From NCBI GenBank assembly GCA_000004985.1, contig GG738912.1: DNA of 64,000 bases; one strand, 5' to 3'. The stretch is from Naegleria gruberi. Its lineage: Eukaryota. Positions 12,793 through 31,526 of the stretch are shown one piece after another (positions within the stretch are counted from its first letter, which is position 1; each line of letters starts with the position of its first letter). Both the position numbers and the translations under genes were made by a program. Below the pieces are notes generated by a model that searched no databases, was not told the DNA's origin, and saw nothing but the letters and a program-made list of their open reading frames with translations.

Positions 12793-15700
12793 TTACTTTT
12801 TATTGAGCAATGAAAGCGAGGATAAAAGGGCAACACCAGTTTTTCTTTCCTCTCCGTATTTGAATTGTCTAGTTACAAGGTTGAGTCGTTGATGGAATTG
12901 TGACTTGAGGACAGCTCGTTGTTTGGCAGTGAGGAATCTTCTTCCAATTGCTTGAATTGTTGTGGTAGATGATAAAGTTTGTTCAGAAAATTGAGTGGTC
13001 TGTTTTCTTGTAAAGGAACCTCGCAGCAAACCTTGGATAGTTTGTAAATTCTCATTCTTGATGCTTAATTCAACTCTCGTTCTTGATCCCTCAATTGCTG
13101 ATCGAATAGTGAACACCTTATCCGTTATACTCTTGAGTGATTTGGCTTGTTGAATTTGTCTGACTCGGGCTTGCAATAGCGAAATACTACTCAGAGCAAA
13201 TTCAAATTCATTCCTCTTATTGTGACACATAAAGAGAAGAGCGACAGTGTTAGATAACTCCTTCATATCAGTGAGACTCCCTCTCGTTTCATGACCATAA
13301 TACAAGCTCTGAAGATAGTTGGCAGAGTCAGAGACAGTTCTGAAATCTTCATTGACAAATCGTCCTCTAATAATACTCTGCAATGCGTTAATATATTGAA
13401 TGTTGGTATTAAGATCTCTGATTGCAATCTGTTGTTGCATGAGTGATTGAATGGATTCTGTGAGTATTTGCATTTTTTTGAATTCTTGTCTTGTTTGATT
13501 GGCTCTGTAGAGGGCAATGATCATATTTCTAGAATCGAGTAGAGAATCTCTGTCCTCATTAAAAGATCTTTTCACTAGGTTTGACCTGAAAAAGGTCTGA
13601 ATGACAATTAGTCCGCTCATTTTCATATCTCTTTGTTTGAGAGTTGTGAAAGTTCTCACCCTTGATTGAAAGATTTTCATATCTTTCTTTTTCTGATATG
13701 TTTTGAGAATGGTAGTCTTTCTTTCCAATAAGGATTGTAAAACAGTGGCCAGAGTGATAGACTTGCTAAAAGATCTTCTTGCAAGTTGCGATTTGAAGAG
13801 AGCTTGAATGATAGCAATATTTTCTCTGGTTTTTTCAATTCTTCTTTCTTCAGACATTCTATGGACAATAGATTGAATTGTTTTGATGGATTCGGTTGTG
13901 GTGGACGATTGTCTCCTGGTAGAAATTCCATGTAAGCGAGTTGTGACAATTTGAACTTTGGTCATAGAATTTGCATATTGTTTTCTAACTAGACTGGAAC
14001 TCATGAAGGTTGAAATTAAATCCATTTGAGAGGATATTCTTTCGAAAGTCTTCAATGCTAGTTGTTTTCTGCACAAGGACTGAATGTGAGTGAGAGAATT
14101 GATAACTTCTTCTCTACTGGTTCTCGCAGAATATCCTCTTGATGCAGCTTGGAGAGTACCAACACGTTGTAATTGATTTTCATGATTTTTCCTATCTGTA
14201 TTTCCTCTGGCAGCATTTTGAATTATAGTAATTGAATAGTATCTCCTTTCGTTTTGGTATTCTTGTTGAATTGAACGGCTTCTACAGACAGCTTGTAAAT
14301 TAAGAATATGCTTTTCGATACGTGATCTTGTGGAGAGTTGAATGAACCCCTTAGCAAATGATGTGAAAATCTGCAATCTCTCCTGTTCAAGGGTGGTTGC
14401 ATTTCTTTGACTTATGCCATTCCATAAAGATTGAAGTAAAATGACTTGATTGATAGAAGTAGCTTTTTCGTCTTTGGCTTGTTTTCTTCTTAATAGTGAT
14501 TGAAGAGCACTAACGTCTTGAATAGCTTCAGCATTTTCCCTACGTTTGTATTTACCTTGAAAAGCTGCTTGGATGGTGACTAAATCATGTTGAGCTCTTT
14601 CATAACCAGATCTCACAAGGACTCCTTTGGCAAGAGCATGTACATACTTGGTAAATGTTTGGAGTGCATGTATGTTTGATCTTTCCTTGTTTGCTCTCAC
14701 TAATGCTTGAATCATTTGAGTGGCATTCCTATCAATAGGAGAATAATTGTTCTTTTTAGATGATTTGTTTCTAATCAAAGCTTGCAAGACAATAATCTTG
14801 TTAAGGGTTTGATTTTTCAACATGTTGATATTTCTAGAATTAGCCAGTGCTTGTAGAGAAATTAAATCTGAAATGTGTTGCTTTCTGCTCTGTTCTTCAG
14901 CTTTTCTCCTTACCAATGCTTGCAATACTATGATACCAGAACAATCCATGTGAGTCGTGCTTCCTCTTAAAAAGGCTTGAATTATTGTTATATTTTCTAG
15001 TTGCTTTGATTCTATGTTTTGCATTGCAGAGGATCTACATCTAGCTTGTATTGCTAATACTGCATTCTTGGATATTTCAAACTCTGCTCTTGTAAATCTA
15101 TTTCTGATTAGTGACTGGATAATTTCAATATTGTTTAAGGAGTTTTTTACCAATAGTCTGGTCTTATTTCCTCTAAGGAAGGCACAAACCATTGAACTTG
15201 AACTAGTTTGTTTATCCAATTTCTTTTGTACTATTTTTGATCTTATTAATGATTCCAAAGTTTCCAATCTTTTCAAATCCAATTTCATCTTGGCAGCTTC
15301 AGATGATTTCCTAATAGTACTTTGAAGATTGGTAACAAATGCCATGCTGGTTTGAGCTAGTCTTCTTTCCATGCCTGATTGTATTAATGCATGAATAAGA
15401 TGAACACTCTCAATAGGGGATGCATGTTCAGTCCTTTCCTTGTGAGAAATTATTAAATTTTGTATCATGGAGACTGCTTCAAGTTGGTTAAGTTTGCTGG
15501 CAACTGTTGAGCTTGATCTAAAAGCAGATTGAATGGTAATAATTTGATTCTGCATGCGATTTCTACTAGTTCTTTCTGTATTACCTTGTAGCAAGGCATG
15601 CAATAGATTCACTCCACCTCTAATTTTTTGTTCATTAAACTTCCTGATAGTGGCTTGAGCAACAACCAACTTTTGAATATAAACCCTGCCATGGGAATTG

Positions 15701-18700
15701 TTCCTAACAATATGTCCTCTAATAAGAGCTTGCAAACTTGAAATTCGCTGCTTTTCACTCTCCAAACTAGCAGACACAAGGTTGGATCTTGCTGCTGATT
15801 GTATAATTTGAATTTGTTCCATCAATTTAAGCTTGACTTCTCTTTCTATGCATCCTTGGTTTAGTGTTTGAACAATTGTGGCAACATCTCTAAAAGCAGA
15901 CATTTGGAGCTTTTCAACCAGAGATTTTCCAAGTGATTGAAAGGTCAAAATAGCATCTTTTTGTCTACCATCGTTGACCCTTGTAAAGTGGCCAACTACA
16001 GCGCTTTGTATTATCTTGGTATTTCTGATTGCCTTCTCGGTTTCCCTACATTTCAAGAATCTCCTGACCAAAGATTGCATTATTTCCACCAAGTCCCTTG
16101 TTAAGTAAAAGGTTTGCCTTAATGATCTACCTTTAAAAAAAGATGCAAGGGTATTACTATCCTCAAAACGGTTCCTTACCAGAGCTGACTGTAACAAGGT
16201 TGAAATAATATCTATTTTGGACTTTTCTTGTTCCGCTAATCGCCTTGTGTTGAATGACCTAGCACTCAATGAAAGGATAGAAATCATGTCCAAATGAGCT
16301 TGTTTGCTTGTCATTACATGTTTTCCTCTGATTGCACTCTGAATTACAAGCACTTTGGTTAATTGATACATGTCCACATGGTTATTTCCACGTCCTCTGA
16401 AGAAGGCCTGAATATTAGTGATACTATCATGTACATGTGAAAAATTCTTCCTTTCCAAATATCCTCTAATGAGAGCTTGCTGAGTGTTGATGTGGTTTTT
16501 GGTAGGTTGTAGATTTTTTCTCTCATCTCTTCCTCTCATGCTAGATTGCAAATTGATGATGTAAATTGTGTACTGTTCATGTTGTGCACGTAGCGTGTGA
16601 GAAAGAATGAGAGATTGTAAAATCTTGATGTTGTTGATGCATGTTTCCGATTGTTTTCTATTGATGTATGCTCTTCCGAATGTTTCAACTAAAAGAGAAG
16701 AGTCAATCAAGTCCTGATGTTCCTTCAACTTTGCATGTCCTCTTACCACAGCTTGAACATATTTGGTGTTGTTTGAAAGGGTTGAAAGGTGAGCCTTTTC
16801 CAATTTGCTTCTTATACGAGCTTGTAAAGTTTTGATCTTGTTCAATTCATTGATGAAATCTCCTCTACAGAAAGAGGATTGTAAAAAACCTTGTACGATT
16901 TGAACATTTTCTACATTTTCAATAAATTTGTTCTCTGTCAATTGTCTTCGGGAAAGTGATTGAATAACAGTAACATATTCATTAACACTGCTTTCTATTT
17001 TCCTGGCTATAAAACCACGTACCGAAGCTTGAAGAGTCAAAATGTTATAGTGGTTATGTCTAAAGGATTTGATTTCATTCTTTTTACGAATGTTGGATTG
17101 CACCAACAATACGTTATTCATTTGTTTCTCTTGTTCTTGAGTTATTAAAAAGGTCTTGACTCTTGCCTGAAGAGTTATTATTAAACTCTTATTTTGTGAA
17201 AATTCCTTTCGTGCAAAGTTTCCAAATAAAACAGATTGGGTATTCACTAAATCTTCTCTTCTGGCAGATAAATCTTTTCTTGTGAGATAAGATCTAGCTG
17301 CAGTTTGAATCATTCTCAAGTTCGCAACACTGTTTCTAAACAAGCATCTTGTTTCGAATGTCCTTAAAAGTGCCTGAGTAAAACAGATTCTAATTAGTTC
17401 ATTCTTATGCTCCAAACGTTGCACATGACCTTTCATGAGAGAACCTAATATATTTGAGCTTTCAGTTGTGTGTTTAACAAGTTGATTTTCAATTTTTCCT
17501 TGATATAATGTTTGAATTTGATGGGCCAAATTAATTTTAACTTGAAAACCACGTCTAGTCTGTACGCCTCGCAGCCATGATTGTATAGTCGAAACCTTTC
17601 GTTGAGTTTGGTGCATCAATGAACGGTTTAGCTTCCCTGAGAAAGACGCTTGAATACTATTGATGGCATTAATTCGATGCTTCAAATCAATTCTTCCCAA
17701 ATGTCCCTTGATTGAATGCTGTAAAGTTTGAACAGCATTTTGCAAGGAATGCTTATTTACTTGCTCCAATGTGCCTCTTGCTCTTGACTGAATTAGATGG
17801 GCAGCATTTCTCGTATCATAAAATTTCATCTGTCCACTGTGGCCACGAGCCAAAGAGGTCAAGAGAAGTGCCTTATCTAAATCCGTGCAAGCTTGCGAAG
17901 CGGTATTAATGCTCCTTAATAGAGTTTGAAGAAGCAACACACCCTTTTTAAGATCTGTATATTCCTTCCTTCTTGCGACAGCGTCAATTAAAGTTTGTAG
18001 GACAAGCACGTCCGATTTATACCTTTGGACTACCTTTTGTTGTTCTAGTCCACGACCATTGGCTTGAAGAAGGGAAGCAACTTGCACATATTGAGATAGG
18101 TCCTTTCTTACAAATAAAGATCTTGAAACAGGTTGAACAAGGATAGCAACGTGTTTCTTCTTTTTAAAGTCTAGGAATACCTTTCTTGCACAACAAACAG
18201 ATTGAATTAAAGTGGATGCATTCAACGCTGAATCTTTGAATTTCTGAATCAATTTGGCTCTTATAAGCGATTGTACAAGTGTAATTCTATTACATTGTTC
18301 TTTAAAGGTTGTACGAGCATTGAAACCCCTGATTGCACTATCCATAATCAAACATTTTGAATTCAAAGATTTTCTGTTTCGGTATTCGATAAATCTTCTG
18401 GAAAGCGTTTGAATGGTAGTAATGTCATTGATTAGATGGTTCAAATTGGATTGGCATTGCTTGACCCTTATCAAGGTCTGTATTGCTTGGATATTAGAAA
18501 TTTCCTTAGAGGAGTCTTGTTTCAAAAGTATTCTCCTGATCAATGCCTGAAGTAATGGAATGGATTCACTAGTGGTTTGATATTTCTTTCTCTGATTGCA
18601 TCCTAGTATCGTAGATTGAATTACTTTGATATTTTCCATAGAAAGAGTAAAGCATTTAGCTTGTTGTCCAGCTCTGAATAATCCTTGGATTACTACAGCA

Positions 18701-21700
18701 GAGTCCAAACTTGTTGTGAGATTAGTTCTTTCCAATCTTCCAACTAATGCTGCATTGAATAGATGAGCCAAATTTCGGAGCAATTGCAGGTTTTTCCTAC
18801 TAACATTAGAAGACATCATAGCTTGCAAAACCTCAATTGAGGAGGAGAAGATTACCATTTCCTGCCTGTCAGAAGAACCCTTGATGGATGCTTGCAGAGT
18901 GAGTAAAAAATTCTCCAATTGGCTCACTTCCTTCATTGCTGCTCTTCCTCTAACAAGACTTTGAAGCAATATTATCCTACTTGTCAAAACCGAACGAGAA
19001 TGTTTAACTGATAATGCCTTGGAAAGAGCTGTAAATATTTCGGATCTATCCAATTCGAATCTATAAATTTGTCCTTCTCCTTTGCCTCTGCAAAAGCTTT
19101 GCATTATCTGTATGGCTTCCTTCTTCGATTGTAAATCTTTTTGCTTATGATGTCTCCTTACAAGTGACTGTAAAGTAATGATTTGTTGAATATTGTGTCT
19201 TGTGAAGGAGACTAATAATCTAGACCTTGAAATAGACTGAAGAATTACAATTTGTTGAATATTCTTTGCAAAACAACCTCTTTCAAGTTTTGATCTGGAG
19301 AGCGATTGAATACATTCCAAGTTCAACTTGTTAGAATTGAAATCTTCTTGTTGGTATCTTCTTCTGTGCCAAGTTTGAACGGTGAGAGCAGTAACCCTCA
19401 TCAGATTGAATGTCTCTCTGATTCTATTAGACTCGCACAACACTGCAATGTTTGAAAGGGCTTGAGTCCTGAACACCTCAAAGGCAAAGAGTGAACAAAC
19501 TCTAATTAACTCTGCATCCTCGACAAGTCTTTGGTCTTCCATGATTTCGTCCTCCTCTCCAAAATAAGGTCTCATTCTCGGTATTTCACAATTGTCAGGA
19601 TAGCAATCATAATTAAATCTAACTACAGCCTCCATGAACTCGATAATGAAAAGTGGAATATACTTGAAATCAAGTGGGAATAGCCGTATTTCGTTCAAGT
19701 ATGGGAAGAGTTGTACTTGAACCCATATCAACAAAAGGGGAACCGTAGATTTTGCATCTTCTTCTACCACCTCATCTACCTTTTTGCTTGTTGTCGAATA
19801 GTAATGTTCATTCATTTTGGTGAGAACGGATTTAAGTTTTTCTCCATCATAGTGAACCAGTAGAGCTTCGTGGAAAATGTGTGAGAGAGGGTGTTCATCT
19901 CCAATTTTCATCAATGACTTGTAATTTTCCACATACTTTTCTGCATCTTCGATTGATATCTTTTCAGAAATCAAGTCAACTATACCTCTAACATTATCAC
20001 CTCTAGGATCTAATTTTTCAATTTCCTTTCTCAAAATTGCTGGGGTTAGTTTGGATTTAATCTTATCCAAAGAAGTAGGTTCCTCTGGGAATTGTATTCC
20101 TTCTTCATCTGAAATTTTTTCAATTTCCGATTGGTCTGATGATGACTCTCTGCCATGTCTCTTCAGTGGAGGTTCTTCATAATTTGCCAGAGATTCTAAG
20201 GATGTAACCTTAGCCATATCAGTGGATGTTGGTGTTGAAGGAGTTTTTGCCTTTTTGGCAAACTTGTTGAAAAAACTTTTGATTTTTTCACTTTTTGTCT
20301 TTTTTCTTTCTAATAGTTGACTACTTGTCAATGCTATTTGCGTATTACTATATGTTGATTCATCATCATCAAGTGTATCCAAACTCTGTCCTACAGAACG
20401 GCTGAAATTATTGTTTCTTGCTGGTGCTGATGCAACAGAAAATGCAGTGAAATTACTGTGAGAAGAAATTGTATCAAAAAGATCATCCCTTTCCACAGAT
20501 CCCTTCCCATCCATTAGACTGATTTTAAATGATTTGGATATATTCATGGCTTGAGATCTTCTGACTGGACTCTTTGGAGTTGTTGAGCCAGAAGCTTTTT
20601 CAGCCAGCTCTGAAAAATTGACACCCTTTCTTCTTTTCTGAGACAAATCTTTGTGTACTCCATTAAATTCTGTCAACTTGACTAGAACTTCACTCACCTC
20701 ACTATTAACATGAGAATGGGTTGTGGTTGTACTTATTTGAGAGGCAAAGGTGTGAGTATATTGTGAATATTGAGATTCTTCTGGTGATACAGGTGTTGCT
20801 GTTTCCTTCTTTTTTCTTTTTAATTTTGTAATTATGGAAGGCAACTTTCCTAGTAGAGATTTTGATCTTCCTTTCGTGGTTTCCTTTGTTATTGGAACTA
20901 CTATAGAGGGAACAACAACTAGAGGTCCTTGAAAATTATTGTTTGCTGATGCTGATGTATTACTGGTACCAGTATGATTAGGTGTATTTCCACTAGAAAT
21001 ATCCGATGTATTCATATCATCAAAATCATTGTCAGATTCATTCTCCTCTCCTTGCATATCATTCTCTGTAATATCATCAAATGATGCTCCATACACTCTA
21101 TTGCCATGTTGAACATTTTGAGTTGATGGTGTAATGCTGGATGCACTTGGTGGTGGTGAGGGTCTTCCTCTTGGTGAAAATTCATTCCTTGGAGAACGAC
21201 CATTTGGCATGATTGACCTAGGTGATAATAAGTTACCTCCTCTCGGAGTGTATAAATTGTGAGCTAGTGAATGTGATCGATGTGTACGACCACCACTCTT
21301 GGATGAAGATGTTGTAGATGCAAGTGAACTCTTATTTGAATTATTTCTAAATCTACCAACAGGTCTATTCTGTACAGGTGGTTTACTAATTACTATGGCT
21401 ACAGGTGTGGAGGAATTAATTGATGGTGAATTATCGCTATTATTGTTGGTTTGTTTACTCGATGTTACTAAATTATTCGAATAGATTATTACTCCTCCTC
21501 CATTAGTTGAAGAAGTACTTGTTCCATTCTGATTATTAGGTATTTGTCTATAGAAGGAAGAAGATGAATGTAGGGATGTATTGCTATTATTGTTACTATT
21601 ATTGAAAAGGGATGCTGGATTGGAATTTTGAATGGCAGAAAGTTTTAACTGGGGAATGACAGCAGGTACTCTTTTCGAGGAAGTAGAAGAGAAGGTAGAT

Positions 21701-22275
21701 GCATTAGGTGGAGTGGATGGAGAAATTGGTGAAAAGGTCGTGTTATTACTTCCCTGAAGATGATGAAGATTTGAGGCAAAATTGGGACTTGATGACTGAG
21801 AACGATGTCTTGGTGATAATGTCGATGATGAAGACAATGAATTGGCAAGTGATAAATTAGAAGAACCCACATTCCGTAAAACTGAAGAAGCCGAAAGTAT
21901 TCCTCCTCCTACTCCTCCTGGTGAATTCGAGTTATCCAAACATTGACTATTACCTATCGATAATTGACCTCCATTATTATTATTATTACTAATAATATTA
22001 TTATTAATCGAAGCAGCAATCAATCCTCCAATATTATTATTATTATTATCCATAATACTATTATTTAAATTAATTGTTCCTTGTTGTTGCACACTTGTCG
22101 GCGATGATACAACAACAGATGCAGATGCACCTCCTCCTCCTCCCTGAGCAGACGAAGAAATACTTCCATTGAAAAGAACATTTTGTGCAGCTGCTGATGA
22201 TGATAAATTGGCGGCGGGAAGTAAATCTTGATGGAGGCGGGAAGTGATTTTTTCGGGATTTATCGAATTTCCCAT
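12793..22275 (-). CDS. giant IQ-motif array protein (3160 aa), ASPM/Asp-like architecture without recognisable CH or motor domain
   Basis: Uninterrupted 9.5-kb ORF. The N-terminal ~700 aa are S/N/G-rich and disordered. A ~250-aa globular region follows (…LLIWVQVQLFPYLNEIRLFPLDFKYIPLF…). Then ~2100 aa consist of degenerate repeats with ~23–27-aa period matching the IQ consensus [IVL]Qxx[IVL]RGxxxR (e.g. IQSLVRRHH, IQALIRGHIVR, LQSLVRGRAAMK), running to the C-terminus. Confidence 0.75.
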   Translation of the reverse strand: MGNSINPEKITSRLHQDLLPAANLSSSAAAQNVLFNGSISSSAQGGGGGASASVVVSSPTSVQQQGTINLNNSIMDNNNNNIGGLIAASINNNIISNNNNNGGQLSIGNSQCLDNSNSPGGVGGGILSASSVLRNVGSSNLSLANSLSSSSTLSPRHRSQSSSPNFASNLHHLQGSNNTTFSPISPSTPPNASTFSSTSSKRVPAVIPQLKLSAIQNSNPASLFNNSNNNSNTSLHSSSSFYRQIPNNQNGTSTSSTNGGGVIIYSNNLVTSSKQTNNNSDNSPSINSSTPVAIVISKPPVQNRPVGRFRNNSNKSSLASTTSSSKSGGRTHRSHSLAHNLYTPRGGNLLSPRSIMPNGRSPRNEFSPRGRPSPPPSASSITPSTQNVQHGNRVYGASFDDITENDMQGEENESDNDFDDMNTSDISSGNTPNHTGTSNTSASANNNFQGPLVVVPSIVVPITKETTKGRSKSLLGKLPSIITKLKRKKKETATPVSPEESQYSQYTHTFASQISTTTTHSHVNSEVSEVLVKLTEFNGVHKDLSQKRRKGVNFSELAEKASGSTTPKSPVRRSQAMNISKSFKISLMDGKGSVERDDLFDTISSHSNFTAFSVASAPARNNNFSRSVGQSLDTLDDDESTYSNTQIALTSSQLLERKKTKSEKIKSFFNKFAKKAKTPSTPTSTDMAKVTSLESLANYEEPPLKRHGRESSSDQSEIEKISDEEGIQFPEEPTSLDKIKSKLTPAILRKEIEKLDPRGDNVRGIVDLISEKISIEDAEKYVENYKSLMKIGDEHPLSHIFHEALLVHYDGEKLKSVLTKMNEHYYSTTSKKVDEVVEEDAKSTVPLLLIWVQVQLFPYLNEIRLFPLDFKYIPLFIIEFMEAVVRFNYDCYPDNCEIPRMRPYFGEEDEIMEDQRLVEDAELIRVCSLFAFEVFRTQALSNIAVLCESNRIRETFNLMRVTALTVQTWHRRRYQQEDFNSNKLNLECIQSLSRSKLERGCFAKNIQQIVILQSISRSRLLVSFTRHNIQQIITLQSLVRRHHKQKDLQSKKEAIQIMQSFCRGKGEGQIYRFELDRSEIFTALSKALSVKHSRSVLTSRIILLQSLVRGRAAMKEVSQLENFLLTLQASIKGSSDRQEMVIFSSSIEVLQAMMSSNVSRKNLQLLRNLAHLFNAALVGRLERTNLTTSLDSAVVIQGLFRAGQQAKCFTLSMENIKVIQSTILGCNQRKKYQTTSESIPLLQALIRRILLKQDSSKEISNIQAIQTLIRVKQCQSNLNHLINDITTIQTLSRRFIEYRNRKSLNSKCLIMDSAIRGFNARTTFKEQCNRITLVQSLIRAKLIQKFKDSALNASTLIQSVCCARKVFLDFKKKKHVAILVQPVSRSLFVRKDLSQYVQVASLLQANGRGLEQQKVVQRYKSDVLVLQTLIDAVARRKEYTDLKKGVLLLQTLLRSINTASQACTDLDKALLLTSLARGHSGQMKFYDTRNAAHLIQSRARGTLEQVNKHSLQNAVQTLQHSIKGHLGRIDLKHRINAINSIQASFSGKLNRSLMHQTQRKVSTIQSWLRGVQTRRGFQVKINLAHQIQTLYQGKIENQLVKHTTESSNILGSLMKGHVQRLEHKNELIRICFTQALLRTFETRCLFRNSVANLRMIQTAARSYLTRKDLSARREDLVNTQSVLFGNFARKEFSQNKSLIITLQARVKTFLITQEQEKQMNNVLLVQSNIRKKNEIKSFRHNHYNILTLQASVRGFIARKIESSVNEYVTVIQSLSRRQLTENKFIENVENVQIVQGFLQSSFCRGDFINELNKIKTLQARIRSKLEKAHLSTLSNNTKYVQAVVRGHAKLKEHQDLIDSSLLVETFGRAYINRKQSETCINNIKILQSLILSHTLRAQHEQYTIYIINLQSSMRGRDERKNLQPTKNHINTQQALIRGYLERKNFSHVHDSITNIQAFFRGRGNNHVDMYQLTKVLVIQSAIRGKHVMTSKQAHLDMISILSLSARSFNTRRLAEQEKSKIDIISTLLQSALVRNRFEDSNTLASFFKGRSLRQTFYLTRDLVEIMQSLVRRFLKCRETEKAIRNTKIIQSAVVGHFTRVNDGRQKDAILTFQSLGKSLVEKLQMSAFRDVATIVQTLNQGCIEREVKLKLMEQIQIIQSAARSNLVSASLESEKQRISSLQALIRGHIVRNNSHGRVYIQKLVVAQATIRKFNEQKIRGGVNLLHALLQGNTERTSRNRMQNQIITIQSAFRSSSTVASKLNQLEAVSMIQNLIISHKERTEHASPIESVHLIHALIQSGMERRLAQTSMAFVTNLQSTIRKSSEAAKMKLDLKRLETLESLIRSKIVQKKLDKQTSSSSMVCAFLRGNKTRLLVKNSLNNIEIIQSLIRNRFTRAEFEISKNAVLAIQARCRSSAMQNIESKQLENITIIQAFLRGSTTHMDCSGIIVLQALVRRKAEEQSRKQHISDLISLQALANSRNINMLKNQTLNKIIVLQALIRNKSSKKNNYSPIDRNATQMIQALVRANKERSNIHALQTFTKYVHALAKGVLVRSGYERAQHDLVTIQAAFQGKYKRRENAEAIQDVSALQSLLRRKQAKDEKATSINQVILLQSLWNGISQRNATTLEQERLQIFTSFAKGFIQLSTRSRIEKHILNLQAVCRSRSIQQEYQNERRYYSITIIQNAARGNTDRKNHENQLQRVGTLQAASRGYSARTSREEVINSLTHIQSLCRKQLALKTFERISSQMDLISTFMSSSLVRKQYANSMTKVQIVTTRLHGISTRRQSSTTTESIKTIQSIVHRMSEERRIEKTRENIAIIQALFKSQLARRSFSKSITLATVLQSLLERKTTILKTYQKKKDMKIFQSRVRTFTTLKQRDMKMSGLIVIQTFFRSNLVKRSFNEDRDSLLDSRNMIIALYRANQTRQEFKKMQILTESIQSLMQQQIAIRDLNTNIQYINALQSIIRGRFVNEDFRTVSDSANYLQSLYYGHETRGSLTDMKELSNTVALLFMCHNKRNEFEFALSSISLLQARVRQIQQAKSLKSITDKVFTIRSAIEGSRTRVELSIKNENLQTIQGLLRGSFTRKQTTQFSEQTLSSTTTIQAIGRRFLTAKQRAVLKSQFHQRLNLVTRQFKYGEERKTGVALLSSLSLLNKK

Positions 22276-22709
22276 CTCTCTATGATTTCATACTAGGTGT
22301 TATGGGAGAGAGGCAGAGGCTTGGGAAGGGAGAGAACCAATTTGTTTTTTTGGTTTTGTGATGAGTGATAGCGCTTCTGCTTGATGTGTTGTTGTTGATG
22401 ATGAAAAAGTGGAAATTGATTGGCGAATTTTTTCAGAATGAATTTTGACAGGAGACTTCCGTACGTGTTGTTTGGCAGGTGGCTTTCAGATTGGGGTTGG
22501 ATCAGGTGAAAAGTTTGCGACTTCCATCTATGAGCAAAATTCTTGTTCCATGTTGATCAATATCAGGTTGACTTTAATTTTACAACCATTGTATTTCAAT
22601 ATTTGAATTCAGATTTACTCAAAAAGTTTTAGATTGAAACACGTTCTAGATAGAATTTCTGTCTTGAAAAATATAAATTAGTTTTATTAAGATTGAAAAT
22701 TAATATTAT

Positions 22710-23821
22710 TTTGATTCGAAATTTGGAATTAAACCTGATAATATTACACTCACAACAATTCTTCTGTCCTGTGCTGAACATCATGATATTGGAAAGGGTC
22801 ATACCCGACTACATCAAGGAGAATAGACTTGTTGGTGATGTCTCATAAACTTTTACTCTAAATGTACTGATTTAGAGACTGCTCTCTCAATTTTCGAATC
22901 AATTATTAAGAAAAAGAAGGAAGTGAACTCATACACGTACAATGCTATTATTTTTGCATGTGCAGAGCATGGGCAGTCAAGCCATTGCTTTAAATTCTTC
23001 ACTCAAATGATACAGAGCAATATTGAGTTATTGCCAACACCAGAAACATTCACAGCTTTGCTTACTGCTTGTAGCCATTCTCATATGTACGATAAAGCCT
23101 GGGATATCTACAATTCTATGGGAACAAGTTTCGGTATTGAACCAAGTAATATTCATACATCTTGTTTGATTGATGCACTAGCGAGATCTGGGCAATTTGT
23201 GAAAGCTCTTGAAATAATTGGAAAACGCAAAGATAAAGTATATTGGATGACTCTGATGGGAGCATGTAGAAAATTCAACCATGTTGAGATAGCAGAGAAG
23301 GCTTTTGATGCATTGATTGACATTGATTCAACAGATGGTTCATATTATGTTTTATTATCCCATATTTATATATTCAACAATCAAATGGAAAAGGCAGCAA
23401 CAATAAGATTTAATGAAATATAATAATGGCTCAAAAGTTGTTGGAGTCACTTCTGTGATACATTGGCGACGAGATTCACACCCAGTGATGACAGATAAGC
23501 ATCTCATTCAAGTCGAGCTTGATAAATTGATTAATGAACTAATGGAGGCAGGTTATTCTCCAGATACTAGATGGGTTACCAGAATAGAAACTTTGAGCAC
23601 TGAAGAAAAACGAAACCTTTTATGTAGGCATTCTGAAAAGATTGCCATGGCGTATGCTTTTGTCAGAATGCCAAAAACTAAACAAATAGTCTTATTCCAA
23701 AACCTGACTGCCATGAAGCAACAAAGTACATTTCCAAAGTGAGAAAATGATTGTTGTGAGAGATGCAAGTCGATACTACCATATTAAGGACGGAAAATGT
23801 AGCTGTGGTGATAATTGGTAA
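22710..23821 (+). pseudogene. truncated PPR–E–DYW (plant-type organellar RNA-editing factor) gene with several frame disruptions
   Basis: Conceptual translation across three frames gives …FGIKPDNITLTTILLSCAEHHDIGKG / VIPDYIKENRLVGDV / INFYSKCTDLETALSIFESI…YTYNAIIFACAEHGQ…TFTALLTACSHSHMYDKAWDIY…CLIDALARSGQ…, a PPR/E motif series. It continues …SHP…HSEKIAMAYAFV…NL.CHEATKYISKVRKMIVVRDASRYYHIKDGKCSCGDNW*, a DYW deaminase domain that has HxE but lacks the first Cys of CxDCH. There is no N-terminal PPR array and no in-frame start. Confidence 0.5.
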
Positions 23822-24852
23822 TAACTGTACTAATTTCACTTACAATAATTCAGTCTTACCAATTTATCAAACATCAAATAATAATATCGTATCAAATGAA
23901 AACAACTAGAGATTCTTTCCTGTTAGAATCAAATAAGTATCTGGACTTGAAGTACAAATCCAAACACACTCCATTATAATATCATCACTGTTGTTCCTCC
24001 GAGTGAATCGGACTACTCAGAGACTAATCTCTCTATCTCTCAATCATCTAGAGGCTTATCGACATTACATAACAGACTTGTTTGATAGTATGTCGGAGAA
24101 GGTATTCGTTCAAGTTGTTTTAATAACAAATCTGATATTATAACAATATCTCTTTGCAACCCAAAAAGTTAAGGTATATGATCCAGTCTAGACAGAATAC
24201 TTTCCTTATTTACCTTTGGACATGTTGAGATAAAACGAAGACATAATATTGAGATTGGTCCTTGGAGGATGGCCTTAATAATTTATAGGTTCTGCGAAGT
24301 TATGTATTGGTCCCTTAAGCTTGCAGTGGGGAAGAGAATGTAGGAAAAGTCGAATACAAAAACATCATGACAAATAGTAATCAAATCATGGTGTTGAGAA
24401 TTGTAAATACTAATATGAATTTACATGATTTATCAATATCAAATATTGGATTCTTGATCCACAAGTGTTGCTTAATATCATCTCTAATACCCTATTAGAG
24501 CATTAATTTTAAACCGCCAATAGTTCCATTGTCCAAAACCAAACCACATCCTTAATTTGGCTAGCATATCCGAAAATCCAAATTCAGAACGTATTGCTTA
24601 TGGCGCATATGCTTGCGTCAATCGAATCAGCAGCATGAAGCTCAACTTTGCAGATGATGGATCTGCTAAGAGGACAAGACCTAAACAAACTCAAAAAAAA
24701 CCAACAACACAACAATCACAACATTAAGCAGAAGAGGAATAAGAACTCTTTCTTTAGTAGTACTACTCTCTGACAAGCACTGCAAGACCGCATATAATAT
24801 TTGGTGGTTCGATTTCTTCTTTTTTAAAAGCTCTCACAGAAAGTGAACTGGA

Positions 24853-27742
24853 TTGGATCACAATAATATTATACAATATATTATAATATTCAAGAATAAT
24901 TATACTATGAATCATCCTGCACCCAATAATAGTGATATCATCAACTATGCAAATGGGCATCCTCATCGTCATAACCAACAACAACAGCAGCAACAAGATA
25001 CTCAACACTTTTATTCAAAATCCTATCCAACTTCCTTTAATAATGAAATTGGAAACATCAACAGAAGTGAAGGGGTGAGAGAACCACTCAACCCTGTTTG
25101 GAATAATACTCAACCATATCAGAACCCAAATAAGAGTGCAGCCTCCATGCTCATGTTTCCTCATGATGATGACAGAAGTCCTCTAACCTATTCATTAATA
25201 TCTTCACCTGCCAACAATACTACAAATACAACAACACCATGTACATCTTCTCACAACCGTAATGCTAACAATACCACTAGTTCAAGTATACCACAAGCAT
25301 CAACAGAGAGATCCTCATGTACTAACTACATGTATCCAACGTCCTCAAACAACAACTCAAACATCCAACAACAATATCCTCAAAGGAAACAATCTTCTCC
25401 ACCACCTCACTATCCAATCAGAAATAATAATCAATCTGTACATGATGTGGCGCCTTCACCCATACAGCGTAATACACCTTCTTCAAATGGCTCAACCATA
25501 AACAGTCAATTGCTCCATGACTGTCGGGGTGTACAAATTAATAATTATGATATACCTAGTTCGAATTGTCAAAGAGAGGATGGAAAATCATTCATCCAAC
25601 AACCTGATCAGCTTGTCCAAACAAAACAAGAATTCAAAACAAACATAACCATCAGTAGCAGCTCGGATATTGATTTTCCCAACAATATGAATAATACCAA
25701 TAGAGTTTCGACTGATCATCATCAGCCTACATGTATTATTAATAATAATAATTATAATAATAATAATAATATGAACGAATTCAATAACACTAGAAGAACA
25801 ACATCATCATCAACATATGGTTATAATAATAATAATTCTACGACATTAGACCAGAATATGTTTAATAATTCCTCTTCACCACCTCCTTCTTCCATGTTGC
25901 AATATTATAACTCACAACAACATCATAACAACAACAATAACTCTGTATCAAATATTCCTAATCAGAAGAGAATTTCTCCAACTGTAAATTATGAATCTTC
26001 TTCGACTGGTAGGATTGTTGATGAATCAGCATCATATCATAATGGTAGTAGAGCAACAACAAGCTTACCACAACAACAGCATGCAGCAACATCCTCACAT
26101 GACAATACACATGTACTACCTTATTATAATGCACATCCTTCTAGACATGCATCGCCTACATCCACCACCTATCAATACTCCCCACATCAGCAGCACCAAC
26201 AACAACATGTACAACAATCACCTAGAAGTTTGCCAACTGATCAGCCGAGAGAATATCCTTCTTCTTATTCTGATCCAGTGGTGAGTAATTCTTCTCAACC
26301 ACCACAGTATCAGCCATCATTACAGAAAGATAATAGATCGTTGGATCCTTCTTATTCAGCTAATGGATATCACTCGCAACAGCAGTATCAATTAACAACA
26401 CAAATAATACTACTAGCAGCAATCATACTAGATCAAATTTAAGTGCTAATTTCCATTCCTCAACTGATTTTTCATTTAGTGGAAGAAATGCAAGTCATAG
26501 TGGATCCTCTGATGATAATTCTGATTCAAAACTGAATCATGGAGGAGCTTTGAATGGTGATTCTAGAAAACACAAGAAGAAAGGTCCAAAGAAGAGAGAA
26601 ATTTCAAGAGATGATATGAAAAAGTATTTCCATGTTTCTCAAACAGTTGCTGCTAAAATGTTAGGAGTTTCAGTTAGTACTCTTAAAAGAAGGTAAGTTG
26701 TCTTCTCGAAGAAAATCATCTAATTCTTGTATTTATCATGTTTGCTCTCATGTACATTGATTGCATAATACTTAATGTAAATGTATTAATTATCAATATT
26801 ATGTTGATGCATCTTACATCCAATGCATGTATCTGAATTTAAATTATATCGGATGAACCAATTCGCTTTTTGCTGATTCCTCCCTTAATGCATTTAACAT
26901 TGGTATTTACCGTAAAAAAACTTACTTTCATATTTGGACTTTAAGATTTTATGAGGAGTTTAACATGAAATGGCCATATGTGCCTTCAAAAACCAATACT
27001 TCAAAGAGAAAGAAGGATGACAATGGGGAGACAACATTGGGAAGTGGTGATAATAGTCAACAAAACTCAGATGAGCATGCTTCATCACATGAGATGGTAC
27101 TTCCTCATCAACAACAGCAACTGCAACCACCATCCTCATTCGATTCACCTTATAAGAAATTGAAGAGAGATGTTATCTTTGATCCACCAAATAATGTAGT
27201 TAGCGAGCAAAATCATCTTTCTGCAACATTCACATACTTCTTATCAAAATAATGTTCAGAATGCACCACCACCTCAATATTCTCAAATGAATGATAGAAA
27301 TTCATCCACACATGGATCCATGCATGCCTATCCAACATCCATTAATGTAAATAATAATCATATAGAAAATGGATCAACTAGTTTACATATCAGAAATGAG
27401 AATGTTTCAAATGTAGCTCCAACAAGACATGCTCAAGTGGTTTCTTATCAACATGCTGAACCTTATCCTCCTTCCTCTTCTGCTACCATTCGAAACAATA
27501 TCAATAACAGTACATCTACCTCACTCATGTCTTATCATGCTCCACAACAAACAATGAACCATGCCAATCATGGTATCATACATTCTAATTCACCTCCTGG
27601 TTACATGATGAGAGGAGAAGATGTTTATTCATCAGCTGCAACTACATCTCAATCACAACATTTTGAAGCAGCTACAGTTTCTGGACCAACTACCAATATG
27701 TTACCTCCTATTTCCTCTTTTAAAATGGAATCTTGGAAGTAA
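24853..27742 (+). CDS. N/Q/S-rich RWP-RK domain protein; at least 3 exons
   Basis: A long low-complexity ORF shifts frame by one base near 26380-26400 into SANFHSS…KKREISRDDMKKYFHVSQTVAAKMLGVSVSTLKRR (RWP-RK N-terminal half). The GTAAGT donor at 26693, intron 26693-26945 and acceptor TTTAAG give R-FYEEFNMKWPYVPSK (the RWPxRK position reads MKWPY). A second intron 27196-27259 (GTAGTT..TTCAG) joins to ORF 27287-27742. Confidence 0.55.
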
Positions 27743-30083: not shown

Positions 30084-31526
30084 ATGTTCGCAGAGGAAAC
30101 TCATGGTCATTACCATGATAAAAAGAAGACGAAACTCGCCAAAGATAATGTTGACGAAATGATTGAAATTGAAATGCCAAATAATGCAAATAACAGCAGT
30201 AGTGGAAACGGAGATGTGGCTGGACAACAAACAGTAATGCATAGAATTGGTTCTTCTCCGACCTTTAGTCCAGTTTCTGTTCCTAGGTTAAATGTTTCGT
30301 ATGTGGATCAAGCTACTCGAGAGTGGCAATCGGATTTTAAACAATTTCCTCTAGTGGATACAGCCAATATTTCAAAGAAGGAAGTTGTAGAGTTTTACGA
30401 AAAGCAAAATGAAATGGTTGATGAATATTCGAAACTTTTCAAATCCAAGTTGGAGCATTCGGACGAAACTACAACTGAAGGCGATTTGACAGGACGTTCT
30501 GTTGCCAATGAAGCTGCTTTCGAACAGGAAGAACATATTACACCTGCCATGAAAAGATTAGAATATTGGTGCATTCACTTGTCATTTTGGACAAACGTTT
30601 GTTTATTTGTGTTGAAATGTTCTGCGAGTATCTTATCAGTTTCTCTCTCAGTTATTACATCCACAATTGATTCTGCTTTGGATTTATTATCTGGTTTGAT
30701 TATTTATATTACTTCATTGTATAGAAGAAGAAAGAATGATATTTATCAATATCCAATTGGTAGAAATAGATTGGAACCAATTGGTTTTGTAATTTTTGCT
30801 ACTTGTATGTGTACTGCAAGTTTGCAAATTATCAAGGAAGGTTTATCTCAAATCGTGACAGGTCTCATTACAGGTGATGTTTATATTAATGCAAATAGCT
30901 CAGATGATTCAAATGCTGAAGTTGACTGGATGTTTGGTATTATGATTCCTAAATATGTTGCCACTATTTTCTATTGGTATGGTATTGGTGTCCTGTTGGC
31001 AACCATTCTCATCAAATTGGCTCTCCATTTGATTTGTAGAAGAGTTAAACATTCTCCTTCAGTTATTGCCTATGCATTCGATCACAGAAATGATGTCTTG
31101 TCTAATAGTTTGTTGCTTGTTTCCCTATTCTTGAGCAAATATTTGTGGTGGCTCGATTCTATTGGTGCTGTCATTTTGAGTATTTACATTATTAAGAGTT
31201 GGATTGACGAATCTTTGGAACATGTGACTAAACTTGTTGGTTTGACTGCTGATAAGGAATACATTCAAAAGTTGACATTCATGGCATTGAATCATAGTCC
31301 TCTAATTACTCAAGTTGATTCAGTAATGGCCTATTATTCTGGTGCCAATATGATTGTTGAGATTGATGTTGTCTTGCCAAAGGAAACTCCACTCTTGGAA
31401 TCTCACGACGTTGGTGAAACATTGCAAAAGAAGATTGAATCCTTGCCAGATGTTGAAAGATGTTATGTCCATTTGGATTATGAATTTTCACATACAAAGG
31501 ATTATGAACATGTCGTTAAGGATTAA
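30084..31526 (+). CDS. cation diffusion facilitator family transporter, Mn-type (DxxxD motif)
   Basis: Six TM helices; SASILSVSLSVITSTIDSALDLLSGLIIY…YQYPIGRNRLEPIGFVIFATCMCTASLQIIKEG matches the Mn-CDF (MTP8/11-like) TM2–TM5 consensus; C-terminal cytoplasmic domain present. Confidence 0.8.
   Translation: MFAEETHGHYHDKKKTKLAKDNVDEMIEIEMPNNANNSSSGNGDVAGQQTVMHRIGSSPTFSPVSVPRLNVSYVDQATREWQSDFKQFPLVDTANISKKEVVEFYEKQNEMVDEYSKLFKSKLEHSDETTTEGDLTGRSVANEAAFEQEEHITPAMKRLEYWCIHLSFWTNVCLFVLKCSASILSVSLSVITSTIDSALDLLSGLIIYITSLYRRRKNDIYQYPIGRNRLEPIGFVIFATCMCTASLQIIKEGLSQIVTGLITGDVYINANSSDDSNAEVDWMFGIMIPKYVATIFYWYGIGVLLATILIKLALHLICRRVKHSPSVIAYAFDHRNDVLSNSLLLVSLFLSKYLWWLDSIGAVILSIYIIKSWIDESLEHVTKLVGLTADKEYIQKLTFMALNHSPLITQVDSVMAYYSGANMIVEIDVVLPKETPLLESHDVGETLQKKIESLPDVERCYVHLDYEFSHTKDYEHVVKD

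What the first reader, a model, noticed from the sequence alone, without database searches (positions are those of the whole stretch)
22710..23821. Truncated, frame-disrupted PPR–E–DYW (plant-type RNA-editing factor) gene abutting the giant IQ gene
Seen in sequence: stitching three frames yields about three PPR motifs (…GIKPDNITLTTILLSCAEHHDIGKG…, …YTYNAIIFACAEHGQ…, …TFTALLTACSHSHMYDKAWDIY…) and E-type motifs (CLIDALARSGQ…, YVLLSHIYIF). A DYW deaminase-like domain follows (SHP…HSEKIAMAYAF…CHEATKYISKV…VVRDASRYYHIKDGKCSCGDNW*). There is no upstream PPR array or start codon, at least four frame changes occur, and the first Cys of the CxDCH zinc motif is missing. Established knowledge: DYW-type PPR proteins are C-to-U RNA-editing factors of plant organelles, known outside plants only in a few protists and a few probable horizontal-transfer cases. 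Inference: this is either a decaying pseudogene/retro-fragment or a gene broken by assembly indels; either way it implies that the lineage has, or had, DYW-type editing factors.
Basis: partly seen in the sequence, partly recalled or inferred. Interest (0 to 1): 0.7.

Follow-up and report, generated by a model that had tools for sequence, protein, structure and literature searches.

The report
Dead PPR-DYW editing-factor gene in Naegleria
This is the broken, non-functional remnant of a plant-type RNA-editing factor gene in the amoeba Naegleria gruberi, a species already known to carry about ten working copies of that family, so it is a real but fairly ordinary pseudogene.

Summary
Window 22716-23821 (+) holds the C-terminal half (L-S-P2-L2-S2-E1-E2-DYW) of a PLS-class PPR-DYW gene: Pfam DYW_deaminase 2.8e-30, PPR 3e-20, E_motif 3e-9.

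The window is Naegleria gruberi; a neighbouring ORF is 100% identical to an NCBI N. gruberi protein.

The fragment is not a copy of an annotated N. gruberi paralog (38-43% identity). It is the reciprocal best match of an intact 808-aa Willaertia magna protein, KAL9657062.1 (68-73% aa, about 75% nt identity, same DNW end).

Against that ortholog it lacks the N-terminal 424+ residues and any start codon. It carries eight frameshifting indels (seven deletions, one insertion). One 13-nt deletion removes the first zinc-ligand Cys of CxDCH.

In the repaired frame there are no stop codons, differences concentrate at third codon positions, and dN/dS is about 0.10. The gene was therefore under selection for most of its history and died recently.

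Assembly error is unlikely: the indels are multi-base and non-homopolymer, and the adjacent 9.5-kb ORF is unbroken. Verdict: an apparently unannotated pseudogene of a known family, of low to moderate interest.

The parts
22716..23821 (+). Whole PPR-E-DYW pseudogene remnant, homologous to residues 425-808 plus the stop codon of Willaertia magna KAL9657062.1
   Evidence: tblastn and DNA alignment to P0205/L004. Identity rises from about 0.4 to 0.77 at about 22716-22729. The TAA stop is shared.
22716..22796 (+). Frame segment 1 (coordinate mod 3 = 0): end of a P motif and start of an L motif, SKFGIKPDNITLTTILLSCAEHHDIGK. A net 5-nt deletion follows at about 22798-22804.
22801..22839 (+). Frame segment 2 (mod 3 = 1): rest of the L motif, IPDYIKENRLVGD. 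A 16-nt deletion follows at 22841/22842.
22842..23405 (+). Frame segment 3 (mod 3 = 0), 188 codons: S motif (22842-22928), P2 (22929-23039, with a 6-nt in-frame length difference at about 23027), L2 (23040-23147), S2 (23148-23237), E1 (23238-23336) and the start of E2 (23337-23405). A 2-nt deletion follows at 23405/23406. Motif borders are my reading of the PLS scheme.
   Evidence: Pfam PPR, PPR_2 and E_motif hits; alignment to P0205
23407..23457 (+). Frame segment 4 (mod 3 = 1): end of E2 and start of the PG-box region, DLMKYNNGSKVVGVTSV. A 1-nt insertion follows at 23458.
23459..23479 (+). Frame segment 5 (mod 3 = 2): YIGDEIH, the conserved end of the PG box (W. magna has YIGDEIHTF). A 5-nt deletion follows at 23481/23482. 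In frame 1 this stretch reads as the spurious 'RRDSHP'.
23484..23489 (+). Frame segment 6 (mod 3 = 0): SD, a remnant of SDDKKHP. An 11-nt deletion follows at 23491/23492.
23494..23703 (+). Frame segment 7 (mod 3 = 1): N-terminal part of the DYW deaminase domain, including the catalytic HSE (HxE) at 23629-23637. A 13-nt deletion at 23705/23706 removes R-V-C-G of NLRVCGDCH.
   Evidence: Pfam DYW_deaminase
23706..23747 (+). Frame segment 8 (mod 3 = 0): DCHEATKYISKVRK. The second half of CxDCH is retained and the first Cys is gone. A 4-nt deletion follows at 23749/23750.
23750..23821 (+). Frame segment 9 (mod 3 = 2): IVVRDASRYYHIKDGKCSCGDNW plus the TAA stop. The second zinc site (H...CSC) is present. 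The terminal tripeptide is DNW rather than DYW, as in the W. magna ortholog.
22276..22715 (.). A 440-bp AT-rich spacer between the start codon of the IQ gene (minus strand) and the 5' break of the pseudogene. It shows no PPR homology, repeat or RNA family.
12793..22275 (-). Neighbouring intact 3,160-aa single-exon ORF with many IQ motifs, lying head-to-head with the pseudogene. It is context only and serves as an internal control for assembly quality.
   Evidence: Pfam IQ E 3.2e-22

Best explanation
The locus is a non-functional pseudogene in the Naegleria gruberi nuclear genome. It is the decayed C-terminal half of a PLS-class PPR-E1-E2-DYW gene, the family of mitochondrial C-to-U RNA-editing specificity factors with a built-in cytidine deaminase.

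The gene was inherited from the common ancestor of Naegleria and Willaertia. Its ortholog is still intact in Willaertia magna (ABK040_002688, 808 aa). In the N. gruberi lineage it stayed under purifying selection for most of the time since that split and then lost function recently.

The 5' half, with the start codon, any targeting sequence and most of the RNA-binding PPR array, is gone. The break lies 440 bp from the start of the neighbouring IQ gene. The remainder has collected eight frameshifting, deletion-biased indels, one of which removes a zinc-ligand cysteine of the deaminase centre. It can make neither an RNA-binding array nor an active deaminase.

Shown: homology, lesions, orthology, the selection signature and the absence of a matching protein model. 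Inferred: decay in place rather than a transposed fragment, recent timing, and lack of expression.
For: Family identity: Pfam DYW_deaminase 2.8e-30, PPR 3e-20, E_motif 3e-9 on the stitched translation.

Organism: ORF 30084-31526 is 100% identical to an NCBI 'predicted protein [Naegleria gruberi]'. The next-best hits are N. fowleri 64%, N. lovaniensis 61% and W. magna 55%.

Orthology: an exhaustive phmmer search of 1.84 billion representatives puts P0205 first at E 2.1e-91. P0205 is W. magna KAL9657062.1. BLASTP gives 66-68% identity over residues 425-808, against 43, 41 and 38% for N. gruberi paralogs P0217, P0283 and P0233, 39% for W. magna P0237, and at most 36% for plants. The best match is reciprocal.

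Lesions: eight frameshifting indels (net -5, -16, -2, +1, -5, -11, -13, -4) and no counterpart of residues 1-424 anywhere in the window.

Past constraint: over 355 ungapped codons there are 0 stop codons and 73.5% aa identity. Differences per codon position are 18.9, 12.7 and 44.8%. pN is 0.152, pS 0.677 and dN/dS about 0.10. Because 5.1% of possible single-base changes would create a stop, the absence of stops caps neutral substitutions at about 57, or 0.053 per site, at 95%.

Not annotated: neither the stitched query nor P0205 retrieved a near-identical N. gruberi protein.

Not an assembly artefact: no indel lies in a long homopolymer, and the adjacent 9,483-nt ORF is unbroken.

Literature: N. 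gruberi has 10-11 DYW-type PPR proteins and two verified mitochondrial C-to-U sites (PMC4202320; PMC4758236).
Against: Eight indels alongside zero nonsense substitutions and a low dN/dS is an unusual mix. It requires either a high indel-to-substitution ratio (at least about 0.15) or a very recent death.

There is no synteny with the W. magna locus beyond the gene itself, so decay in place cannot be separated from a transposed fragment.

I had no read-level or RNA-seq data. The N. gruberi, N. fowleri and N. lovaniensis genomes could not be searched at the DNA level, so an intact second allele or copy missing from the protein sets cannot be formally excluded.

The word-indexed protein search missed P0205 despite 66% identity, which weakens negative results from that tool.
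Confidence: 0.82

Rival explanations
1. The fragment is a 5'-truncated retrocopy, or a fragmentary dispersed duplicate, of a PPR-DYW gene whose parent copy has since been lost or was never annotated. It landed next to the IQ gene and was dead on arrival.
For: The 3' end is complete up to the native stop codon while the 5' end is truncated, the classic shape of a retro-fragment. The locus shares no neighbours with the W. magna ortholog locus.
Against: No poly(A) tract follows the stop codon, and there are no target-site duplications or flanking repeats. No parent gene appears among N. gruberi proteins; the best paralog is 43% identical. The strong purifying-selection signature and the absence of nonsense substitutions mean the copy would have to be very young, yet its source is missing. 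Synteny between these genera is poor in general: the neighbours of the cation-efflux gene also differ beyond one gene.
Confidence: 0.12
2. The gene is intact and functional, and only looks broken because of sequencing or assembly indels.
For: There are no in-frame stop codons after frame repair, dN/dS is about 0.10, and most catalytic motifs are conserved (HSE, DCH, CSC).
Against: The indels are -5, -16, -2, +1, -5, -11, -13 and -4 nt and lie outside long homopolymers. The whole N-terminal half and the start codon are missing. The 13-nt deletion removes a zinc ligand. The neighbouring 9,483-nt ORF and 24 other ORFs of at least 200 aa in the window are unbroken, so the local error rate is very low. 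From my own knowledge, not checked here, the reference N. gruberi assembly is Sanger-based.
Confidence: 0.03
3. The fragment still makes a short functional product, for example an E/DYW-only protein acting in trans like plant DYW1 or MEF8-type proteins, or a small PPR-E peptide from the 166-aa ORF 22923-23423.
For: An open 166-aa stretch and a 109-aa ATG-initiated ORF (23413-23742) exist. Plants do use short trans-acting DYW proteins (bioRxiv 10.64898/2026.09.04.749523).
Against: The 109-aa ORF is out of the ancestral frame over 23459-23493 and ends before the CxDCH and CSC zinc sites. The DYW domain is cut into five frames and lacks the first Cys. The 166-aa ORF starts at GTG and has no deaminase. 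No matching gene product is on record.
Confidence: 0.02
4. The fragment is a recent horizontal transfer of plant DNA, or contamination of the assembly.
For: Most database hits are land-plant PPR-DYW proteins.
Against: Plant hits reach only 33-36% identity, against 68% for W. magna and 38-43% for N. gruberi paralogs. GC content (about 35%) matches the rest of the window. The fragment is embedded between Naegleria genes on one contig.
Confidence: 0.01

Closest known systems
Willaertia magna hypothetical protein ABK040_002688 (KAL9657062.1, 808 aa; PPR-E-DYW)
   Same: It is the reciprocal best match. Identity is 66-68% by BLASTP, 73.5% over ungapped codons, and about 75% at the nucleotide level. 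Motif order is the same (…L-S-P2-L2-S2-E1-E2-DYW). It shares the lineage-specific signatures PDTRWVTR and LLCRHSEKIAMAYAFVRMP, the terminal GDNW and the TAA stop.
   Different: The W. magna gene is an intact 808-codon ORF with a full PPR array, a PG box and NLRVCGDCH. The N. gruberi copy lacks residues 1-424 and has eight frameshifts. The neighbouring genes are not shared.
The annotated N. gruberi DYW-type PPR proteins (10-11 genes per Knoop & Rudinger 2010; e.g. XP_002679496.1, XP_002674667.1, XP_002682650.1)
   Same: Same genome, same PLS-E-DYW architecture and the same heterolobosean clade. They are closer to the fragment than any plant protein is.
   Different: Identity is only 38-43%, so the fragment is not a recent copy of any of them. 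Those genes are intact and this one is dead.
Land-plant PLS-class PPR-DYW RNA-editing factors (e.g. At3g26782-like and DOT4-like proteins)
   Same: They share Pfam PPR, E_motif and DYW_deaminase, the HxE…CxDCH deaminase signature and the C-terminal H…CxC zinc site.
   Different: Identity is only 33-36%. The plant proteins are functional, organelle-targeted and end in DYW. This locus ends in DNW, is truncated and is frameshifted.

Membership tests
PLS-class PPR-E-DYW RNA-editing factor family (by descent) | Tandem PPR motifs of P/L/S type | tested here: met
   Pfam PPR 3.2e-20 (4 stretches) and PPR_2 2.7e-20. L-S-P2-L2-S2 align motif by motif with P0205 and with plant proteins.
PLS-class PPR-E-DYW RNA-editing factor family (by descent) | E1/E2 extension motifs after the last S motif | tested here: met
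   Pfam E_motif PF20431 scores 3e-9 and 37.4 bits against a cut-off of 27.3.
PLS-class PPR-E-DYW RNA-editing factor family (by descent) | C-terminal DYW deaminase domain (PF14432) | tested here: met
   E 2.8e-30 and 104 bits, covering profile positions 1-93 of 93 on the stitched translation.
Functional PPR-DYW editing factor (by activity) | Complete catalytic zinc site HxE…CxxCH | tested here: not met
   HSE is present (23629-23637), but a 13-nt deletion at 23705/23706 removes the first Cys of NLRVCGDCH.
Functional PPR-DYW editing factor (by activity) | One uninterrupted ORF with a start codon and a full N-terminal PPR array and targeting region | tested here: not met
   Nine frame segments, eight frameshifting indels, no ATG, and residues 1-424 of the ortholog absent from the window.
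Functional PPR-DYW editing factor (by activity) | Terminal DYW tripeptide and the H…CxC second zinc site | tested here: inconclusive
   The HIKDGKCSCGDNW end is kept. The tripeptide is DNW, as in the intact W. magna ortholog, so this is a lineage variant rather than a lesion.
Functional PPR-DYW editing factor (by activity) | Expression, mitochondrial import and editing of a defined C site | not testable with these tools
   No transcriptome, proteome or mitochondrial sequence data were available.
Pseudogene (non-processed, decaying in place) | Clear homology to a functional gene together with disabling lesions | tested here: met
   68-73% aa identity to an intact ortholog, a 5' truncation and eight frameshifts.
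Pseudogene (non-processed, decaying in place) | Location at the ancestral (syntenic) locus | tested here: inconclusive
   No shared neighbours with the W. magna locus. Other Naegleria genomes could not be searched at the DNA level.
Processed pseudogene or retro-fragment | A 3' poly(A) remnant and flanking target-site duplications, with a parent gene elsewhere | tested here: not met
   No A-run follows the stop at 23821. There are no flanking direct repeats beyond chance. No parent is found among N. gruberi proteins.

The most novel reading that the evidence does not exclude
The death of this gene records the loss of one particular mitochondrial editing site in the N. gruberi lineage. On this reading the W. 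magna ortholog still edits a C in its mitochondrial transcripts, while N. gruberi has fixed a genomic T at that position, which made the factor dispensable. That would be the first documented co-loss of an editing factor and its site outside land plants. It would also give a natural handle for assigning a target to a heterolobosean PPR-DYW protein. The locus further suggests an unusually deletion-biased, indel-rich decay of dead DNA in Naegleria.
Probability: 0.25. Interest if true: 0.45.

Novelty: new member of a known kind. Interest (0 to 1): 0.25.

Why it matters
The locus matters mainly for bookkeeping and family evolution. It adds a dead member to the small N. gruberi PPR-DYW family and shows that the family undergoes gene death as well as expansion.

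It also identifies an ortholog pair between Naegleria and Willaertia. That points to vertical inheritance of at least this family member within Vahlkampfiidae, rather than repeated transfer from plants.

N. gruberi has 10-11 DYW proteins but only two known editing sites. A recently lost member with an intact ortholog in a sister genus offers a concrete comparative test of which sites these proteins serve.

It changes nothing about what is known of DYW deaminase mechanism or distribution.

Tried and rejected
(1) Introns as the cause of the frame changes. Rejected: the frame changes are 1-16-nt gaps relative to the ortholog's coding sequence, not insertions with GT…AG ends.

(2) A recent duplicate of an annotated N. 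gruberi paralog. Rejected: identity is at most 43%.

(3) The missing N-terminal half displaced to the other side of the IQ gene or elsewhere in the window. tblastn of P0205 residues 1-424 found only cross-matches to the same locus.

(4) Synteny with W. magna, N. fowleri or N. lovaniensis. tblastx found only the gene itself in L004. The loci around the cation-efflux orthologs in N. fowleri and N. lovaniensis list no PPR or DYW gene within 10 kb.

(5) Orthologs in other Naegleria species. A search with P0205 found nothing between 33% and 100% identity. The top phmmer hits that I named were N. gruberi paralogs, W. magna, ferns or lycophytes, and unnamed metagenome or Logan contigs.

(6) Independent assemblies of the locus. 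Exact-product look-ups for four window ORFs and for P0085 returned nothing, so the N. gruberi genome appears not to be indexed there.

(7) Repeats, target-site duplications, mobile-element ends or RNA genes at the 5' break or in the flanks. None were found.

(8) The primary papers (Knoop & Rudinger 2010; Rudinger et al. 2011; Schallenberg-Rudinger et al. 2013) are not held, and the Acrasis paper's supplements list no N. gruberi accessions. I therefore could not check whether this relic was already noted. The discrepancy between '11' in PMC4202320 and the '10' I recall could reflect such a fragment.

Full report
**Observation**

A stitched 378-aa translation gives these Pfam hits:
- DYW_deaminase: E 2.8e-30, 104 bits, full-length profile
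- PPR: 3.2e-20, four stretches
- PPR_2: 2.7e-20
- E_motif: 3e-9

Even the single 166-aa and 109-aa open stretches hit PPR/E_motif and DYW_deaminase on their own. The feature is real and far beyond chance.

**Organism**

The ORF at 30084-31526, a cation-efflux protein, is 100% identical to an NCBI 'predicted protein [Naegleria gruberi]'. The next-best hits are N. fowleri (64%), N. lovaniensis (61%) and Willaertia magna (55%). The window has about 34% GC and is dense in long intron-free ORFs, which fits.

N. gruberi is the first organism outside land plants in which DYW-type PPR proteins were found: 10-11 genes (Knoop & Rudinger 2010). Two mitochondrial C-to-U editing sites were later verified (Rudinger et al. 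2011). Both are cited in PMC4202320 and PMC4758236.

**Closest relative**

A word-indexed search with the stitched protein gave only hits of at most 37% identity: one metagenome protein, then plants. It returned no N. gruberi protein at all. This shows the locus is not represented by a gene model.

An exhaustive phmmer search with the exact 194-aa in-frame stretch (22839-23420) put one protein far ahead, P0205 at E 2.1e-91. P0205 is W. magna KAL9657062.1, an intact 808-aa PPR-E-DYW protein.

Identities to the fragment are:

| Protein | Identity |
|---|---|
| W. magna P0205 (residues 425-808) | 66-68% |
| N. gruberi P0217 | 43% |
| N. gruberi P0283 | 41% |
| N. gruberi P0233 | 38% |
| W. magna P0237 | 39% |
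| Land plants | at most 36% |

The best match is reciprocal. Both sequences end in GDNW and share lineage-specific strings such as PDTRWVTR and LLCRHSEKIAMAYAFVRMP. The locus is therefore the N. gruberi counterpart of a gene that is intact in the sister genus. It is not a recent copy of a known N. gruberi paralog and not plant DNA.

**Lesions**

I aligned the window to the W. magna coding sequence (L004 10001-12427). Homology begins abruptly at about 22716, where identity jumps from about 0.4 to 0.77, and runs to the shared TAA at 23819-23821.

Relative to the ortholog, the N. gruberi sequence has these indels:

| Position | Change | Note |
|---|---|---|
| about 22798-22804 | net -5 nt | |
| 22841 | -16 nt | |
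| 23027 | +6 nt | in frame |
| 23405 | -2 nt | |
| 23458 | +1 nt | |
| 23481 | -5 nt | |
| 23491 | -11 nt | |
| 23705 | -13 nt | removes R-V-C-G of NLRVCGDCH, including the first zinc-ligand Cys |
| 23749 | -4 nt | |

That makes eight frameshifting indels, seven deletions and one insertion, which split the remnant into nine frame segments.

The homologous frame there gives YIGDEIH, the end of the PG box.

Residues 1-424 of the ortholog have no counterpart anywhere in the 64-kb window. Only 440 bp separate the break from the ATG of the divergently oriented 3,160-aa IQ-motif ORF. What is retained is L-S-P2-L2-S2-E1-E2-DYW.

**History**

Reading the N. gruberi sequence in the ortholog's frame gives 355 ungapped codons with no stop codon and 73.5% amino-acid identity. 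Differences per codon position are 18.9%, 12.7% and 44.8%. Nei-Gojobori values are pN 0.152 and pS 0.677, so dN/dS is about 0.10, with dS near saturation.

This is the signature of long purifying selection. For comparison, the functional cation-efflux pair is only 55% identical.

Because 5.1% of possible single-base changes in these codons would create a stop, the absence of any stop caps post-inactivation neutral substitutions at about 57, or 0.053 per site, at 95%. Loss of function is therefore recent relative to the Naegleria-Willaertia split. The decay so far is dominated by small deletions: 56 nt lost against 1 nt gained.

**Alternatives**

- **Assembly error.** This is unlikely. The indels are mostly multi-base and outside long homopolymers, half the gene is missing, and the adjacent 9,483-nt ORF is unbroken.
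- **Retro-fragment.** A 5'-truncated fragment with a complete 3' end fits the shape, and the lack of synteny with W. magna is compatible with it. However, there is no poly(A) remnant, no target-site duplication and no parent gene. This remains a minor possibility.
- **Residual short functional product.** This is implausible because the deaminase domain is split over five frames and lacks a zinc ligand.
- **Other features.** No RNA family and no notable repeat lies in 22000-25000.

**Other Naegleria species**

A search with P0205 found no protein between 33% and 100% identity. None of the top phmmer hits that I named came from N. fowleri or N. lovaniensis. This suggests there is no annotated ortholog in those species.

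The suggestion is weak for two reasons. The word-indexed tool had missed P0205 itself, and those genomes could not be searched at the DNA level.

**Comparison and novelty**

By descent the locus belongs to the PLS-class PPR-E-DYW family: PPR motifs, E motif and DYW domain were all tested and met.

As a functional editing factor it fails two defining tests: the complete HxE…CxxCH zinc site, and an uninterrupted ORF with a start codon and full array. It is best filed as a pseudogene member of the known N. gruberi PPR-DYW family.

I could not read the primary 2010 paper, so I cannot say whether this relic was noted there. No held paper mentions Willaertia PPR proteins.

**Verdict**

The broader implication is already known.

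What is new is modest:
- a Naegleria-Willaertia ortholog pair, which points to vertical inheritance of this family member;
- a datable, recent death of one editing-factor gene in a species with far more DYW proteins than known editing sites.

The most interesting follow-up is whether the W. magna ortholog edits a site that is a genomic T in N. gruberi.

Noticed in passing
window 12793-22275 (-): A single uninterrupted 3,160-codon ORF. Its N-terminal roughly 700 residues are low-complexity (N/S/G-rich). The rest is a very long array of IQ-like repeats (Pfam IQ E 3.2e-22, many sub-threshold stretches). It lies head-to-head with the pseudogene, 440 bp away.
   Followed up: partly
L004 9064-9951 and 10001-12427 (Willaertia magna JBEGDK010000023.1): A separate 295-aa PPR gene model ends only 49 nt upstream of the 808-aa PPR-DYW ortholog, on the same strand but in a different frame. 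The two may be one longer gene split by annotation or by a short intron. If so, even more is missing from the N. gruberi remnant.
   Followed up: no
window 23810-23818; P0205 residues 806-808: Both the N. gruberi remnant and the intact W. magna ortholog end in D-N-W instead of the name-giving D-Y-W. This is a lineage-specific variant of the terminal tripeptide in an otherwise canonical DYW domain.
   Followed up: partly
window 22716-23821: The decay pattern is strongly deletion-biased: seven deletions totalling 56 nt against one 1-nt insertion, with no nonsense substitution in 361 codons. This implies at least about 0.15 indels per neutral substitution, which hints at rapid DNA loss from dead sequence in this compact genome.
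   Followed up: partly
L001 (ENA ERZ27315067 k141_1309238), P0001; also P0038, P0207/P0355, P0356: Unnamed metagenome and Logan contigs encode PPR-DYW proteins with the heterolobosean-type signature (PDTRWVTR…LLCxHxEK) at 37-41% identity to the remnant. They probably come from uncultured heteroloboseans carrying the same family.
   Followed up: no
versus 32 and 34 (tool behaviour): The word-indexed protein search with the stitched query did not return W. magna P0205, even though the two are 66% identical and share many long exact words. The exhaustive phmmer search found it at once. Negative results from the indexed search should be treated with caution.
   Followed up: yes
window 24853-26442 (+): The next ORF downstream (529 aa, N/Q/S/P-rich, low complexity) has no Pfam hit. 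About 1 kb of sequence with no ORF over 56 aa lies between it and the pseudogene stop.
   Followed up: no
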